Positions 6,852-8,330 of a stretch of 13,254 nt of DNA are shown piece after piece; position 1 is the stretch's first letter; each line of letters starts with the position of its first letter. Both the position numbers and the translations under genes were made by a program. The stretch lies in UHGV virus genome UHGV-0215671, one strand, 5' to 3'. Below the pieces are notes generated by a model, which saw only the letters and a program-made list of their open reading frames with translations, did not search any database and was not told the origin of the DNA. The stretch comes from a virus.

Positions 6852-6930
6852 TGGTACTCCATATCGGATTCGAACCGATACATAACACAGATTTTAAGTC
6901 TGGCCTCTCTGCCAATTGGAGTAATGGAGC
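6852..6930 (-). tRNA. tRNA with anticodon UAA (Leu by anticodon), 79 nt, short variable region
   Basis: Acceptor GCTCCAT/ATGGAGT, D-loop AATTGGCAG, anticodon stem CCAGA/TCTGT (one mismatch) with loop CTTAAAA, 7-nt variable region, T-arm ATCGG-TTCGAAT-CCGAT. Confidence 0.55.
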
Positions 6931-6932
6931 AT

Positions 6933-7008
6933 TGGCGGGGGATGTTGGAATTGAACCAACTTCTTCGATTTCAAAGACCGAGGTTTTAACCTTGTAAACT
7001 AATCCCCT
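6933..7008 (-). tRNA. tRNA-Gln (UUG)
   Basis: Acceptor AGGGGAT/ATCCCCC (A1/C72 unpaired), D-stem GTTT/AAAC, anticodon stem TCGGT/ATCGA with loop CTTTGAA, T-arm GTTGG-TTCAATT-CCAAC. Confidence 0.65.
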
Positions 7009-7016
7009 TTAAATCT

Positions 7017-7574
7017 TTATTTTCTTAGTGGATGAATAAAGAATGCCAACATAACTCTTTCCCTTGAGAATGCTCTTTCTTCTGGGACAACACTTTTAAG
7101 TTTCCATCCAACATAAATTCTCCAGTAGAATTGTTTACCAAAGATTTTAATTGATGGTACAAAAGCGAATAATCCCCAAGCATTACTGTTCCACATTAGT
7201 AGATAACCTGTCTGATTATCTTCAGGGTTAGAACTTACATTGATATTACCTTTCCACTTAGTAACATCTTTTACATCTCTTCCTAACACATGGTAAGAGA
7301 AGTTATAAGCTTTGTTTCTCCAGAGCCAACCAACTCTCTGCATATAGATACCAAGCTTACCAATCTTTCTAATCTTAGCCCATCGTTTGACATGGCCTTC
7401 ATCACCATCAATCGGGTTGTCGTAAGTTTCCATCCATCTAAATCCGAAAGGTAAGTGTCCTTTCTTCTCACTGTAAAATGGAACTACGAAAGGTGCTAAG
7501 ATAACTGCTAAGATTGCTGCAAATGGCTCTAACAAAGCTAAGAAAATCCATGAAGCATACTTCAAATATCTCAT
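7017..7574 (-). CDS. Hypothetical membrane-anchored protein, 185 aa, embedded in the tRNA array
   Basis: ORF track; ATG 7574-7572 preceded by AAAGAGG with an 8-nt spacer, 20 nt downstream of tRNA-Arg; hydrophobic N-terminus (WIFLALLEPFAAILAVILAPFVVPF) predicted transmembrane; Trp-rich. Confidence 0.55.
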   Translation of the reverse strand: MRYLKYASWIFLALLEPFAAILAVILAPFVVPFYSEKKGHLPFGFRWMETYDNPIDGDEGHVKRWAKIRKIGKLGIYMQRVGWLWRNKAYNFSYHVLGRDVKDVTKWKGNINVSSNPEDNQTGYLLMWNSNAWGLFAFVPSIKIFGKQFYWRIYVGWKLKSVVPEERAFSRERVMLAFFIHPLRK

Positions 7575-7593
7575 CTAAATAGCCTCTTTAAAT

Positions 7594-7669
7594 TGGCGCA
7601 GGATAAGGGATTCGAACCCCTATTAACAGCTTCGTAGACTGTTGCTCTATCCATTTGAACTAATCCTGC
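7594..7669 (-). tRNA. tRNA-Arg (ACG)
   Basis: Acceptor GCAGGAT/ATCCTGC, anticodon stem ACAGT/GCTGT with loop CTACGAA, T-arm AGGGG-TTCGAAT-CCCTT. Confidence 0.75.
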
Positions 7670-7674
7670 AAAAT

Positions 7675-7752
7675 TGGTGTTCCAAGACGGATTCGAACCG
7701 TCACTAATACAAGGTTTGAGCTTGCATCCTCTGCCAATTGGGATACTGGAAC
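7675..7752 (-). tRNA. tRNA with anticodon CAA (Leu by anticodon), 78 nt, short variable region
   Basis: Acceptor GTTCCAG/TTGGAAC, D-loop AATTGGCAG, anticodon stem GCAAG/CTTGT with loop CTCAAAC, T-arm GACGG-TTCGAAT-CCGTC. Confidence 0.6.
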
Positions 7753-7753
7753 A

Positions 7754-7828
7754 TGGTACTCACTAAAGGACTTGAACCTTTTTCTTCATCTTGTAAGGGT
7801 GGTGTTTTACCATATAAACTAAGCGAGT
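7754..7828 (-). tRNA. tRNA with anticodon UAC (Val by anticodon); weak anticodon stem
   Basis: Acceptor ACTCGCT/AGTGAGT, D-stem GTTT/AAAC, canonical loop CTTACAA but only 3 of 5 stem pairs, T-arm AAAGG-TTCAAGT-CCTTT. Confidence 0.5.
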
Positions 7829-7833
7829 ATGAA

Positions 7834-7920
7834 AGAGGTCTGAAGTTGTGCCGCTAACTCAACTCCGTGGAATTTGTTACGGTCTTCAGTTGACTCAAAG
7901 CGGTCTTTCACTTGACCTCT
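7834..7920 (-). ncRNA. 87-nt structured element of unknown function occupying a tRNA-sized slot (not a canonical tRNA)
   Basis: Terminal 7-bp complementarity AGAGGTC/GACCTCT, nested internal stems, no TTC-type T-loop, three GGTCT motifs; flanked 5-6 nt from tRNAs on both sides. Strand inferred from context only. Confidence 0.3.
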
Positions 7921-7924
7921 GAAT

Positions 7925-8000
7925 TGGTGCTCCCACAAGGATTCGAACCCTGATAAGTTGCTTACAAGGCAACCGTAATAGCCAATTATACGATAGGAGC
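7925..8000 (-). tRNA. tRNA-Thr (UGU)
   Basis: Acceptor GCTCCTA/TGGGAGC, anticodon stem GTTGC/GCAAC with loop CTTGTAA, T-loop TTCGAAT. Confidence 0.75.
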
Positions 8001-8007
8001 ATTAATT

Positions 8008-8082
8008 TGGAGCATCCAGAGGGAATCGAACCCTCAACCTCAGTTTGGAAGACTGTAATTTTCCCGTTTAAACTATGGATGC
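8008..8082 (-). tRNA. tRNA-Gly (UCC)
   Basis: Acceptor GCATCCA/TGGATGC, D-stem GTTT/AAAT, anticodon loop CTTCCAA, T-arm GAGGG-TTCGATT-CCCTC. Confidence 0.7.
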
Positions 8083-8088
8083 ACTAAT

Positions 8089-8164
8089 TGGTGGAGAAGC
8101 AGGGAATTGAACCCTGTACTTAAGTTTGCAAAACTTATGTTTTAACCATGTAAACTACATCCCC
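8089..8164 (-). tRNA. tRNA-Ala (UGC) with G3-U70
   Basis: Acceptor GGGGATG/CTTCTCC containing the G3-U70 wobble that is the tRNA-Ala identity element; anticodon stem TAAGT/ACTTA with loop TTTGCAA; T-arm CAGGG-TTCAATT-CCCTG. Confidence 0.8.
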
Positions 8165-8170
8165 AATGTT

Positions 8171-8246
8171 TGGTACAGGTGGAGGGAATTGAACCCATCG
8201 TCTTACTGATTAAGAGTCAGCCGCATAACCATTTTGCTACACCTGC
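8171..8246 (-). tRNA. tRNA-Lys (CUU)
   Basis: Acceptor GCAGGTG/CACCTGT, anticodon stem GCTGA/TCAGT with loop CTCTTAA, T-loop TTCAATT; backbone paralogous to the 9502-9577 tRNA. Confidence 0.6.
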
Positions 8247-8253
8247 ATTAATT

Positions 8254-8330
8254 TGGTACACCTAGAGAGATTCGAACTCACACTGAGCAGATTCTAAGTC
8301 TGCTGCCTCTACCAATTGGGCTATAGGTGC
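8254..8330 (-). tRNA. tRNA with anticodon UAG (Leu by anticodon), 77 nt, short variable region
   Basis: Acceptor GCACCTA/TAGGTGT, D-loop AATTGGTAG, perfect anticodon stem GCAGA/TCTGC with loop CTTAGAA, T-loop TTCGAAT. Confidence 0.65.

What the first reader, a model, noticed from the sequence alone, without database searches (positions are those of the whole stretch)
6852..8330. Three leucine-anticodon tRNAs with class I (short variable loop) architecture
The tRNAs at 6852-6930 (UAA), 7675-7752 (CAA) and 8254-8330 (UAG) are 77-79 nt with 5-7 nt variable regions and share the D-loop AATTGG(C/T)AGAG, whereas bacterial tRNA-Leu is class II with a long variable arm; the two Ser tRNAs and the Tyr tRNA here do have long arms. 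Either this phage carries unusual class I Leu tRNAs, which matters for LeuRS recognition, or these anticodons are charged with another amino acid.
Basis: partly seen in the sequence, partly recalled or inferred. Interest (0 to 1): 0.55.

Follow-up and report, generated by a model that had tools for sequence, protein, structure and literature searches.

The report
Phage leucine tRNAs lacking long arm
This Felix O1-like phage of E. coli/Salmonella carries three genuine leucine tRNAs that lack the long extra arm of every host leucine tRNA; the design proves common in phages and Actinobacteria, is almost unremarked in the literature, and raises a testable question about how the host enzyme charges them.

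Summary
ARAGORN and Rfam call three minus-strand tRNA-Leu genes at exactly the stated coordinates (UAA, CAA, UAG). Their variable loops are 7, 6 and 5 nt, while the array's Ser and Tyr tRNAs keep long arms. The window is a Felixounavirus (Felix O1-like myovirus).

All three keep every element reported for E. coli LeuRS recognition: A73, U8:A14, A15:U48, G18G19, A20a and U54:A58. Their D loop is in the same register as host tRNA-Leu. The codons they read sit at Leu positions of distant terminase homologues, so the "other amino acid" reading is not supported.

The architecture is not peculiar to this phage. Short tRNA-Leu genes occur in phages of Mycobacterium, Streptomyces, Enterococcus, Cronobacter and Erwinia and in a crAss-like phage, and in 21 of 120 sampled IMG/VR contigs. 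Solitary chromosomal copies occur across Actinomycetota. E. coli genomes have none.

The closest described relative is the type I tRNA-Leu(CAA) of Streptomyces coelicolor. E. coli LeuRS reportedly failed to charge that tRNA, which has C48 where the phage genes have U48. Charging by the host enzyme is therefore inferred, not shown.

Verdict: a new member of a known but rarely recognised kind. Interest is moderate to high.

The parts
6852..6930 (-). tRNA-Leu(UAA), type I: 76 nt plus encoded CCA; G1.U72, A73, U8 A9, D arm CUCC-AAUUGGCAGA-GAG
   Evidence: ARAGORN; Rfam RF00005 47.5 bits; structural parse; at least 99% identical in 216 phage records
6894..6896 (-). anticodon UAA of tRNA-Leu(UAA), in the loop C32 U33 U34 A35 A36 A37 A38
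   Evidence: plus strand reads tta
6880..6886 (-). 7-nt unpaired variable region GUUAUGU ending in U48
7675..7752 (-). tRNA-Leu(CAA), type I: 75 nt plus encoded CCA; G1-C72, A73, U8 A9, D arm UCCC-AAUUGGCAGA-GGA
   Evidence: ARAGORN; Rfam 44.0 bits; parse; at least 99% identical in 160 phage records
7716..7718 (-). anticodon CAA, in the loop C32 U33 C34 A35 A36 A37 C38
7703..7708 (-). 6-nt unpaired variable region AUUAGU ending in U48
8254..8330 (-). tRNA-Leu(UAG), type I: 74 nt plus encoded CCA; G1.U72, A73, U8 A9, D arm GCCC-AAUUGGUAGA-GGC
   Evidence: ARAGORN; Rfam 58.9 bits; parse; near-full-length matches to tRNA-Leu of very diverse phages
8294..8296 (-). anticodon UAG, in the loop C32 U33 U34 A35 G36 A37 A38 (A37 where host leuW has G37)
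   Evidence: the Sf14 paper lists the same loop
8282..8286 (-). 5-nt variable loop UCAGU ending in U48; same NCAGY form as Streptomyces coelicolor type I tRNA-Leu(CAA) (ACAGC) and the mycobacteriophage and actinobacterial copies
5737..5829 (-). tRNA-Ser(GCU), class II (93 nt): internal contrast showing the array keeps long arms where the synthetase needs them
8586..8675 (-). tRNA-Ser(UGA), class II (90 nt): internal contrast
10110..10197 (-). tRNA-Tyr(GUA), class II (88 nt): internal contrast

Best explanation
These are three functional leucine-accepting elongator tRNAs of the type I (short variable loop) tRNA-Leu kind, carried in the 25-gene tRNA array of a Felix O1-like phage.

Shown: they fold as canonical cloverleaves. 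They keep the nucleotides that E. coli LeuRS is reported to read, namely discriminator A73, U8:A14, the A15:U48 Levitt pair, G18G19 pairing with U55C56, A20a and U54:A58, with a D loop of host length and register. They have replaced the 13-15 nt arm with a 5-7 nt loop, and two core positions switch with it (G9 to A9, purine 13 to C13).

Inferred: the phage encodes no synthetase, so host LeuRS charges them with leucine. This should work because bacterial LeuRS reads neither the anticodon nor, essentially, the arm. They then decode UUA/UUG, UUG and CUA (plus wobble partners). These codons make up 57% of Leu codons in the window's AT-rich genes, whereas CUG makes up only 8%. The tRNAs would thus sustain late-gene translation.

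The arm is lost only in Leu because only LeuRS can do without it. SerRS and bacterial TyrRS cannot, and Ser and Tyr tRNAs in the same arrays keep theirs.

By ancestry the three genes belong with an A9/C13 short tRNA-Leu family that is chromosomal in Actinomycetota and scattered through phage tRNA arrays. They are not derived from the enterobacterial host's tRNA-Leu genes.
For: Gene calls and structure.

Identity elements compared position by position with E. coli leuZ, leuX, leuW and leuQ.

Across 40 distinct short viral tRNA-Leu, A73 is present in 40/40, U8 in 40/40 and U48 in 39/40. The search pattern did not constrain these positions. A9 occurs in 26/40 against G9 in 137/141 class II genes, and C13 in 29/40 against purine in 137/141.

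Stems are 97.1% paired, and 19 of 20 stem positions show at least 3 canonical pair types.

tRNAscan-SE 2.0 isotype models score Leu highest for the orthologues in Shigella phage Sf14 (Leu_CAA 49.1, Leu_TAA 60.2; all three 'Consistent').

Near-invariance across about 250-290 phage genomes. The short form is kept with different but paired acceptor stems in Erwinia phage Harbringer.

Codon usage in the window is TTA 33.7%, TTG 12.2%, CTA 11.0% and CTG 8.1%. The Sf14 paper reports that TTA and CTA are significantly enriched over the host.

Codon meaning: 46% Leu opposite TTA/TTG/CTA against 4.2% background, p=1.5e-11.

No aminoacyl-tRNA synthetase is reported in Felix O1.

Arm dispensability for E. 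coli LeuRS: review. An arm-deleted E. coli tRNA-Leu(CAA) was expressed in E. coli and methylated normally by TrmL.

Leu-specific arm loss: 51 of 58 Leu genes are short, but 0 of 26 Ser and 0 of 11 Tyr, in 29 viral loci.

Family relationship: identity to 70 solitary chromosomal short tRNA-Leu has a median of 0.68-0.74 and a maximum of 0.82. Identity to arm-collapsed E. coli tRNA-Leu is 0.53-0.64. None of the three matches anything in 5,426 E. coli genomes.
Against: No aminoacylation, expression or modification data exist for these tRNAs, so charging is inferred.

Fan et al. 2019 report that E. coli LeuRS 'only charges type II tRNALeu' and could not leucylate the S. coelicolor type I tRNA-Leu(CAA) in vitro.

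E. coli LeuRS Arg811 contacts the phosphate of arm nucleotide 47h. The equivalent R921A change in M. tuberculosis LeuRS lowers efficiency.

The position of unpaired nucleotide 47n is listed among E. coli identity features, and the LSD favours larger variable-arm loops about 2-fold. The short tRNAs may therefore be poorer substrates.

Leu-UAA and Leu-UAG each have one mismatched stem pair. The loops of 6 and 7 nt are longer than the canonical 4-5.

The similarity comparison with actinobacterial genes is inflated by about 23 positions fixed by the search pattern. 75-nt sequences carry little phylogenetic signal, so common ancestry versus convergence is not settled.
Confidence: 0.8

Rival explanations
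1. The three tRNAs are charged with an amino acid other than leucine, so the phage recodes or ambiguously decodes UUA, UUG and CUA.
For: Only the atypical architecture, plus the fact that LeuRS does not read the anticodon, so an anticodon alone does not prove identity.
Against: TTA, TTG and CTA codons of the terminase gene align with Leu in distant homologues (46%) just as CTT and CTC do (48%, p=0.82). This is 11-fold above background. The pooled residues opposite these codons are L, I, M and V, with no other enriched residue. All E. coli Leu identity elements are present. There is no G3:U70, no long arm for SerRS or TyrRS, and no anticodon of an anticodon-reading synthetase (established identity rules). 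tRNAscan-SE isotype models give Leu for the orthologues. Host tRNA-Leu would compete at the same codons.
Confidence: 0.03
2. The genes are poorly charged or uncharged in enterobacteria. On this view they are relics of horizontal transfer from another host background, or they act as decoys, primers or regulators rather than as adaptors. The basis is that E. coli-type LeuRS does not accept type I tRNA-Leu.
For: EcLeuRS and the related S. purpurogeneiscleroticus LeuRS failed to charge the S. coelicolor type I tRNA-Leu(CAA). There is an arm contact by Arg811. The closest cellular relatives are actinobacterial, not enterobacterial. Felix O1-type arrays contain acknowledged pseudo-tRNAs.
Against: The genes are at least 99% identical across hundreds of independently isolated phages, while the surrounding 5.1 kb is 95-97% identical. 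Three isoacceptors are maintained, and the short form persists with compensatory stem changes in Erwinia phages. CCA is encoded and the cloverleaf is intact. The anticodons match the phage's preferred Leu codons. The failed Streptomyces substrate has C48, whereas these have the A15:U48 pair that E. coli LeuRS reads. Arm-deleted E. coli tRNA-Leu variants are reported to remain active.
Confidence: 0.1
3. The short arm is an adaptation, not a neutral loss. On this view, removing the class II arm hides the phage's tRNA-Leu from host or phage factors that recognise class II tRNAs. Candidates are tRNA-targeting nucleases or toxins, and mis-serylation by SerRS. Leu decoding would then survive when host tRNA-Leu is depleted. 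This is compatible with the best explanation for charging and decoding, and differs only on why the arm is absent.
For: The short form recurs in phage arrays of unrelated hosts, sometimes from visibly different starting cores, which suggests repeated loss. Phage tRNAs are known to escape anticodon nucleases through sequence changes (background). Eukaryotic Schlafen nucleases target type II tRNAs specifically. Leu-UAG differs from host leuW at three anticodon-loop positions.
Against: No bacterial nuclease specific for the class II arm was identified here. The Sf14 study judged nuclease escape unlikely for this phage group. The same short form is an ordinary solitary chromosomal gene in Actinomycetota, so it needs no defence rationale. 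T4 and T5 manage with class II tRNA-Leu.
Confidence: 0.12

Closest known systems
Type I tRNA-Leu(CAA) of Streptomyces coelicolor (Fan et al. 2019, NAR 47:6369, PMC6614811)
   Same: It is a bacterial-type tRNA-Leu with a 5-nt variable loop (ACAGC, against UCAGU here). It has A73, U8:A14 and G18G19. It coexists in one cytoplasm with type II tRNA-Leu and a single LeuRS. My scan shows that the same A9/C13 core is widespread as a solitary chromosomal gene in Actinomycetota.
   Different: It is a chromosomal gene of a high-GC actinomycete charged by its own LeuRS, whose LSD was shown to be needed. It has C48, whereas the window's genes have U48. Here there are three isoacceptors on a phage whose host has only class II tRNA-Leu, and whose host LeuRS was reported not to charge the Streptomyces tRNA.
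Animal mitochondrial tRNA-Leu (e.g. human mt-tRNA-Leu(UUR))
   Same: It has a short variable loop. Identity rests on A73 and A14, and recognition occurs without a long arm.
   Different: It is an organellar tRNA, structurally relaxed, with a dedicated mitochondrial LeuRS. There is no sequence relationship. The window's tRNAs have a fully canonical bacterial core and T loop.
E. coli class II tRNA-Leu (leuZ UAA, leuX CAA, leuW UAG, leuQPV CAG)
   Same: They share the anticodons, A73, U8:A14, A15:U48, G18G19, A20a, and a D arm of the same length and register. leuZ also has G1.U72.
   Different: The host genes have a 13-15 nt variable arm, G9 and a purine at position 13. Identity after collapsing the arm is only 0.53-0.64, and there is no BLAST match.
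tRNA-Leu of the classic coliphages T4 and T5
   Same: They are phage-encoded Leu isoacceptors in tRNA arrays of E. coli phages.
   Different: T4 (87 nt) and T5 (85 nt) are class II, with 15- and 13-nt variable arms.
Engineered arm-deleted E. coli tRNA-Leu (minimalist variants cited in the identity review; VLAD mutant of Zhou et al. 2015, PMC4615657)
   Same: They retain Leu identity elements without the arm. They are reported to remain leucylatable, to be expressible in E. coli, and to be normal TrmL substrates.
   Different: They are laboratory constructs on the host scaffold (G9, purine 13). The window's genes are natural, conserved, and carry a remodelled core (A9, C13).

Membership tests
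Canonical elongator tRNA (Rfam RF00005) | Full-length match above the curated gathering score, with cloverleaf: 7-bp acceptor, D arm, 5-bp anticodon stem with 7-nt loop and U33, 5-bp T stem with a UUCRANY loop | tested here: met
   47.5, 44.0 and 58.9 bits against 29, model positions 1-71 of 71; ARAGORN calls; parse; at most one non-canonical stem pair each
Class II (type II) tRNA | Variable region longer than 10 nt that forms a stem-loop | tested here: not met
   Variable regions of 7, 6 and 5 nt with no stem. Lengths across 181 distinct viral tRNA-Leu are bimodal, 5-7 against 10-20
E. coli LeuRS substrate (leucine identity set) | Discriminator A73 | tested here: met
   A73 in all three and in 40/40 short viral tRNA-Leu. 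Identity set taken
E. coli LeuRS substrate (leucine identity set) | Core tertiary elements: U8:A14, A15:U48, G18G19 with U55C56, A20a, U54:A58 | tested here: met
   All are present at sequence level, and the D loop is in the same register as leuZ, leuX, leuW and leuQ. The 3D pairing itself was not modelled
E. coli LeuRS substrate (leucine identity set) | Long variable arm with an unpaired nucleotide 47n at its 3' base, and a contact of Arg811 with nucleotide 47h | tested here: not met
   There is no arm. The literature disagrees on its weight: dispensable, contributory
E. coli LeuRS substrate (leucine identity set) | Actual leucylation by host LeuRS | not testable with these tools
   It needs an aminoacylation assay or charged-tRNA sequencing. 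The only related experiment (EcLeuRS on S. coelicolor type I tRNA-Leu, which has C48) was negative
Type I tRNA-Leu (S. coelicolor / Actinomycetota kind) | Leu anticodon with a variable loop of about 5 nt including nucleotide 48, plus A73 and U8:A14 | tested here: met
   Loops are UCAGU, AUUAGU and GUUAUGU, against ACAGC in S. coelicolor
Type I tRNA-Leu (S. coelicolor / Actinomycetota kind) | Shared core signature (U8 A9, G/Y10-C11-C12-C13, AAUUGGYAGA, GGC) and sequence similarity above that to other tRNAs | tested here: met
   The D arm is identical or nearly so to the Nocardia, Mycobacterium, Rhodococcus and Corynebacterium genes. Identity has a median of 0.68-0.74, against 0.57-0.59 to non-Leu tRNAs of the array and 0.53-0.64 to arm-collapsed host Leu. 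Caveat: the search pattern fixes about 23 positions
Type I tRNA-Leu (S. coelicolor / Actinomycetota kind) | Common descent with the actinobacterial genes, as opposed to convergent arm loss | tested here: inconclusive
   Similarity and the shared A9/C13 state are suggestive. Other short viral tRNA-Leu keep a class II-like core (G9, purine 13), which shows that arm loss happened more than once
Recoding / suppressor tRNA | Anticodon reads a stop codon, or the codons it reads carry a non-standard meaning in the genome | tested here: not met
   The anticodons UAA, CAA and UAG read the sense codons UUR and CUR. Those codons align with Leu in 92 distant homologues

The most novel reading that the evidence does not exclude
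Short-armed tRNA-Leu is a mobile, phage-borne adaptor lineage that shares its A9/C13 core with actinobacterial chromosomal genes. On this reading, phages retain it because losing the class II arm keeps LeuRS identity while making the tRNA invisible to host factors that recognise class II tRNAs, such as tRNA-targeting defence nucleases or toxins, or SerRS. It would thus be an unrecognised structural route of tRNA-level counter-defence or insulation. A corollary is that E. coli LeuRS does charge natural type I tRNA-Leu, contrary to the published generalisation.
Probability: 0.15. Interest if true: 0.8.

Novelty: new member of a known kind. Interest (0 to 1): 0.58.

Why it matters
[quoted passage not shown] The one paper describing a bacterial type I tRNA-Leu treats it as a rarity, and concludes that E. 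coli LeuRS charges only type II substrates.

Here a classical, easily handled E. coli/Salmonella phage group carries three conserved type I tRNA-Leu isoacceptors that can only be served by that same enzyme. This offers a natural, genetically tractable test of three things: what the arm contributes to bacterial LeuRS recognition and editing, whether A15:U48 is the switch that lets E. coli LeuRS accept an armless substrate, and why bacteria keep the arm at all.

The wider pattern found along the way is short tRNA-Leu in many phage arrays and across Actinomycetota, always with long-armed Ser and Tyr. It bears on tRNA annotation, on the evolution of class II tRNAs, on the design of compact orthogonal or suppressor tRNAs, and on how phage tRNAs interact with host defences.

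Tried and rejected
- **Minimum-free-energy folding.** It gave a cloverleaf for Leu-CAA and Leu-UAG but not for Leu-UAA. This is uninformative for an AT-rich unmodified tRNA, so I relied on the covariance model and the structural parse instead.
- **Prior descriptions in the literature.** I searched for phage tRNA with short variable loops, 'type I tRNALeu' and its variants, Felix O1 tRNA, and minimalist tRNA-Leu. I also read the Felix O1 genome paper, the Sf14 tRNA paper, the eLife phage-tRNA paper and two reviews. None mentions a short-armed phage tRNA-Leu. The library excludes most subscription journals, so this absence is not proof.
- **Prevalence.** They give samples only, with no denominators. 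The pattern also required an AATTGG D loop, so conservation of A14, A15, G18, G19 and A20a in those samples is partly by construction.
- **Host origin.** Rejected: none of the three genes has a BLAST match in 5,426 E. coli genomes.
- **Recoding.** Rejected.
- **A phage-encoded LeuRS.** None is reported for Felix O1. I did not scan a complete relative genome myself.
- **Nuclease escape.** I could not test it and kept it only as a low-probability rival.
- **Not attempted.** I did not model the RNA in 3D or build a tRNA phylogeny, because 75-nt sequences carry too little signal.
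Full report
**1. The observation.**
ARAGORN finds 25 tRNA genes in the window, all on the minus strand. Among them are tRNA-Leu(UAA) at 6852-6930, tRNA-Leu(CAA) at 7675-7752 and tRNA-Leu(UAG) at 8254-8330, at 79, 78 and 77 nt including an encoded CCA. Rfam's tRNA model matches each over its whole length at 47.5, 44.0 and 58.9 bits, against a gathering score of 29.

I read the reverse complements and parsed them into standard tRNA numbering. Each has a 7-bp acceptor stem, U8 A9, a 3-bp D stem with C13.A22, and the D loop A14 A15 U16 U17 G18 G19 Y20 A20a G21. 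Each also has a 5-bp anticodon stem with a 7-nt loop, an unpaired variable region (GUUAUGU, AUUAGU, UCAGU), a 5-bp T stem, the T loop UUCGAAU, and A73.

Only one stem pair in Leu-UAA and one in Leu-UAG are non-canonical. The two Ser tRNAs (93 and 90 nt) and the Tyr tRNA (88 nt) of the same array have long arms.

**2. Where the window comes from.**
The tRNA region is 95-98% identical to about 200 genomes of Felix O1-like myoviruses (Felixounavirus, Ounavirinae) of Escherichia, Salmonella, Shigella and Citrobacter. More distant matches occur in Erwinia and Klebsiella phages. Public records annotate the three genes as tRNA-Leu.

In relatives the array lies between the large terminase/portal module and a DUF2828/DUF7788/vWA 'RNA-binding protein'.

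**3. Are they leucine tRNAs?**
The identity review and Fan et al. agree on what E. coli LeuRS reads. It ignores the anticodon. It reads A73, U8:A14, the A15:U48 pair, G18G19 with U55C56, A20a and U54:A58. Variants lacking the long arm are reported to remain active.

All of these nucleotides are present in the three genes. The D arm has the same length and register as E. coli leuZ, leuX, leuW and leuQ, which I fetched for comparison. Leu-UAA and Leu-UAG also share G1.U72 with leuZ.

In Shigella phage Sf14 (Mooglevirus, same subfamily) the Leu-UAG and Leu-CAA anticodon loops are identical to the window's, and the Leu-UAA loop differs only at position 32. There, tRNAscan-SE 2.0 isotype models score Leu highest for Leu-CAA (49.1) and Leu-UAA (60.2). 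All three are listed as consistent with their anticodon.

No determinant of another synthetase is visible. There is no G3:U70, no long arm for SerRS or TyrRS, and no anticodon of an anticodon-reading enzyme.

**4. The rival reading: another amino acid.**
I aligned the window's large terminase with 92 homologues of 41-58% identity, many from prophages of unrelated bacteria. Columns encoded by TTA, TTG or CTA in the window carry Leu in 46% of homologue residues. The figure is 4.2% for non-Leu codons (p=1.5e-11). It is indistinguishable from the columns encoded by CTT or CTC (48%, p=0.82).

The next most frequent residues are Ile, Met and Val. The genome therefore treats these codons as Leu, and I reject the recoding reading.

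**5. Are they functional?**
Leu-UAA is at least 99% identical in 216 phage records, and Leu-CAA in 160. The surrounding 5.1 kb is only 95-97% identical.

In Erwinia phage Harbringer, a different genus, three short tRNA-Leu (CAA, AAG, UAA) have completely different yet fully paired acceptor stems and keep the same identity nucleotides.

Across 40 distinct short viral tRNA-Leu, 97.1% of stem cells are paired, and 19 of 20 stem positions show three or more canonical pair types.

The window's eight long ORFs use TTA 33.7%, TTG 12.2%, CTA 11.0% and CTG 8.1% of 172 Leu codons. The Sf14 study found TTA and CTA significantly over-used relative to the host.

Felix O1 encodes no aminoacyl-tRNA synthetase, so the host enzyme must do the charging.

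**6. Not a Felix O1 oddity.**
A sensitive BLAST search with Leu-UAG found nothing in 5,426 E. coli genomes, and neither did the other two isoacceptors. It did find near-full-length, essentially ungapped matches to annotated tRNA-Leu genes in many other phages. The hosts were Mycobacterium, Streptomyces, Gordonia, Enterococcus, Lactobacillus, Pseudomonas, Acinetobacter, Synechococcus, Cronobacter and Klebsiella, plus a crAss-like phage.

Fetching representatives confirmed the short architecture:
- Mycobacteriophage Cali has three (CAG, GAG, CAA; 74-76 nt).
- Streptomyces phage NootNoot has two.
- Cronobacter phage CR3 has two.
- crAss-like phage cr111_1 has two.
- Enterococcus phage EFDG1 has one short and one long.

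T4 and T5, the classic models, have ordinary class II tRNA-Leu. That probably explains why the short form was not noticed in the early phage tRNA work.

I then scanned IMG/VR with a pattern that accepts either architecture. About 28-30 of these, in 21 contigs, are short, often as two or three isoacceptors inside arrays of 16-22 tRNAs.

Variable-region length is cleanly bimodal, at 5-7 against 10-20 nt. At positions the pattern did not constrain, the short class keeps A73 (40/40), U8 (40/40) and U48 (39/40). It switches G9 to A9 (26/40, against G in 137/141 long genes). It also switches purine 13 to C13 (29/40, against purine in 137/141).

The loss is specific to Leu. In 29 viral loci with a short tRNA-Leu, 51 of 58 Leu genes are short, but 0 of 26 Ser and 0 of 11 Tyr.

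**7. Cellular relatives.**
Roughly three quarters of the 120 loci are Actinomycetota, including Nocardia, Mycobacterium, Rhodococcus, Gordonia, Corynebacterium, Bifidobacterium, Arthrobacter, Amycolatopsis and Rothia. None is enterobacterial.

In 91 loci the gene is the only tRNA within 8 kb, so it is an ordinary chromosomal gene. Nearly all are tRNA-Leu: UAA 63, CAA 25, UAG 18, CAG 8, GAG 5.

Their core is essentially that of the window's genes: UAGCCCAAUUGGCAGAGGC, then the anticodon arm, then NCAGU, then GUUCGA.

Identity of the window's tRNAs to 70 such solitary genes has a median of 0.68-0.74 and a maximum of 0.82. Identity to arm-collapsed E. coli tRNA-Leu is 0.53-0.64. Identity to the 19 non-Leu class I tRNAs of the same array has a median of 0.57-0.59. 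About 23 positions are fixed by the pattern, and most are also shared by the E. coli genes.

Some short viral tRNA-Leu keep a class II-like core (G9, purine 13). These include the Leu-UAG of Salmonella phages Si3 and FG1m within the same genus. The arm has therefore been lost more than once.

**8. What is known, and the tension.**
The only paper in the searchable library that uses the term 'type I tRNALeu' is Fan et al. 2019. It describes S. coelicolor tRNA-Leu(CAA), which has the 5-nt loop ACAGC, as a rare bacterial case alongside animal mitochondria.

That paper reports that E. coli LeuRS 'only charges type II tRNALeu' and could not leucylate the Streptomyces tRNA. It maps the ability to charge type I to the LSD of the Streptomyces enzyme. 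It does not mention phages.

[quoted passage not shown] None of the Felix O1 genome paper, the Sf14 tRNA paper or the eLife paper on phage tRNAs mentions the variable loop.

The phage case therefore sits against a published generalisation. A specific reconciliation is available. The Streptomyces tRNA has C48, whereas the window's three have A15 and U48, the Levitt pair listed among E. coli identity elements.

Other evidence points both ways:
- Against full dispensability of the arm: E. coli LeuRS Arg811 contacts the phosphate of nucleotide 47h, and the equivalent mutation lowers efficiency in the M. tuberculosis enzyme. The LSD also favours larger arm loops about 2-fold.
- For tolerance of arm loss: an arm-deleted E. 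coli tRNA-Leu(CAA) was expressed in E. coli and methylated by TrmL like wild type.

**9. Conclusion.**
The three genes are best explained as functional leucine tRNAs of the type I kind, charged by host LeuRS and supplying the phage's AT-rich Leu codons (confidence about 0.8). Structure, identity nucleotides, conservation, codon meaning and distribution are shown. Charging, expression and modification are inferred.

Why the arm is absent is open. The simplest account is neutral loss or inheritance, possible because LeuRS alone among the class II-tRNA synthetases can do without it. An adaptive account, escape from factors that recognise class II tRNAs, is not excluded and would be the more interesting outcome.

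I file this as a new member of a known kind. The genes themselves are long annotated. The architecture and its conflict with the reported specificity of E. coli LeuRS appear not to have been described.

Noticed in passing
window 8918-8996 (-): Rfam calls a 26th tRNA (31.7 bits) that ARAGORN does not. It has a good acceptor stem, T arm and anticodon arm with the loop CUUCUAA (Arg-UCU, which Sf14 also encodes). Only about 5 nt sit where the D arm should be, and about 23 nt lie between the anticodon and T arms. Relatives annotate pseudo or 'OTHER' tRNAs in these arrays.
   Followed up: partly
window 10856-12271 (-); L002 1032-2675: A 471-aa protein flanks the tRNA array. It has DUF2828 + DUF7788 + a weak vWA match and is annotated 'RNA-binding protein' in relatives. 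Streptomyces phage NootNoot has a 'Ro RNA binding protein' inside its own tRNA array. A Ro60/TROVE-like protein next to tRNA arrays in unrelated phages hints at RNA quality control of phage tRNAs.
   Followed up: no
L133-L252 (genome-contig loci): Short (type I) tRNA-Leu is a normal solitary chromosomal gene across Actinomycetota, with anticodons UAA, CAA, UAG, CAG and GAG depending on lineage. This is far beyond the single S. coelicolor case in the literature. A minority of hits are in Planctomycetota, Acidobacteriota, Chloroflexota and Cyanobacteria, some inside large tRNA arrays that look viral.
   Followed up: partly
L253 5001-5079; L255 4999-5076: Salmonella phages Si3 and FG1m carry chimeric tRNA-Leu genes. 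The chimeras join the 5' part of the CAA gene to the 3' part of the UAA gene, with the junction at different points. The intervening segment is lost, which points to recombination between the two paralogues. Their Leu-UAG is a different short type with a class II-like D arm (G9, ACGGUAAUUGGUAAACCU).
   Followed up: partly
window 8288-8300 and 7710-7722 (-): Leu-UAG has A37 after G36, where host leuW has G37 (the m1G37 site). Leu-CAA has C38, which breaks the A36-A37-A38 motif used by MiaA, whereas Leu-UAA keeps it. The modification state of these tRNAs may therefore differ from that of the host isoacceptors.
   Followed up: no
window 7017-7574 (-): A 185-aa DUF7338 protein, annotated 'holin' in phage EcoM2, is embedded in the tRNA array between tRNA-Gln(UUG) and tRNA-Arg(ACG). 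A DUF7217 protein (5831-6628) is also inside the array.
   Followed up: no
window 9411-9487 and 10361-10437 (-): There are two tRNA genes with a CAU anticodon. In Sf14 both score inconsistently with the Met isotype model, so one may be a lysidine-dependent tRNA-Ile2 or an initiator-like species.
   Followed up: no
L003 4266-4351 and 4993-5068: Enterococcus phage EFDG1 carries one class II tRNA-Leu(UAA) and one short tRNA-Leu(UAG) in the same array. Both architectures can therefore coexist on one phage.
   Followed up: no
L006 (T5 record annotation): The T5 record notes, for each tRNA, whether changing the anticodon to the amber-reading one makes it a suppressor. The class II tRNA-Leu(UAG) does become one. 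This is a ready-made assay format for testing the Felix O1-type short tRNA-Leu in vivo.
   Followed up: no
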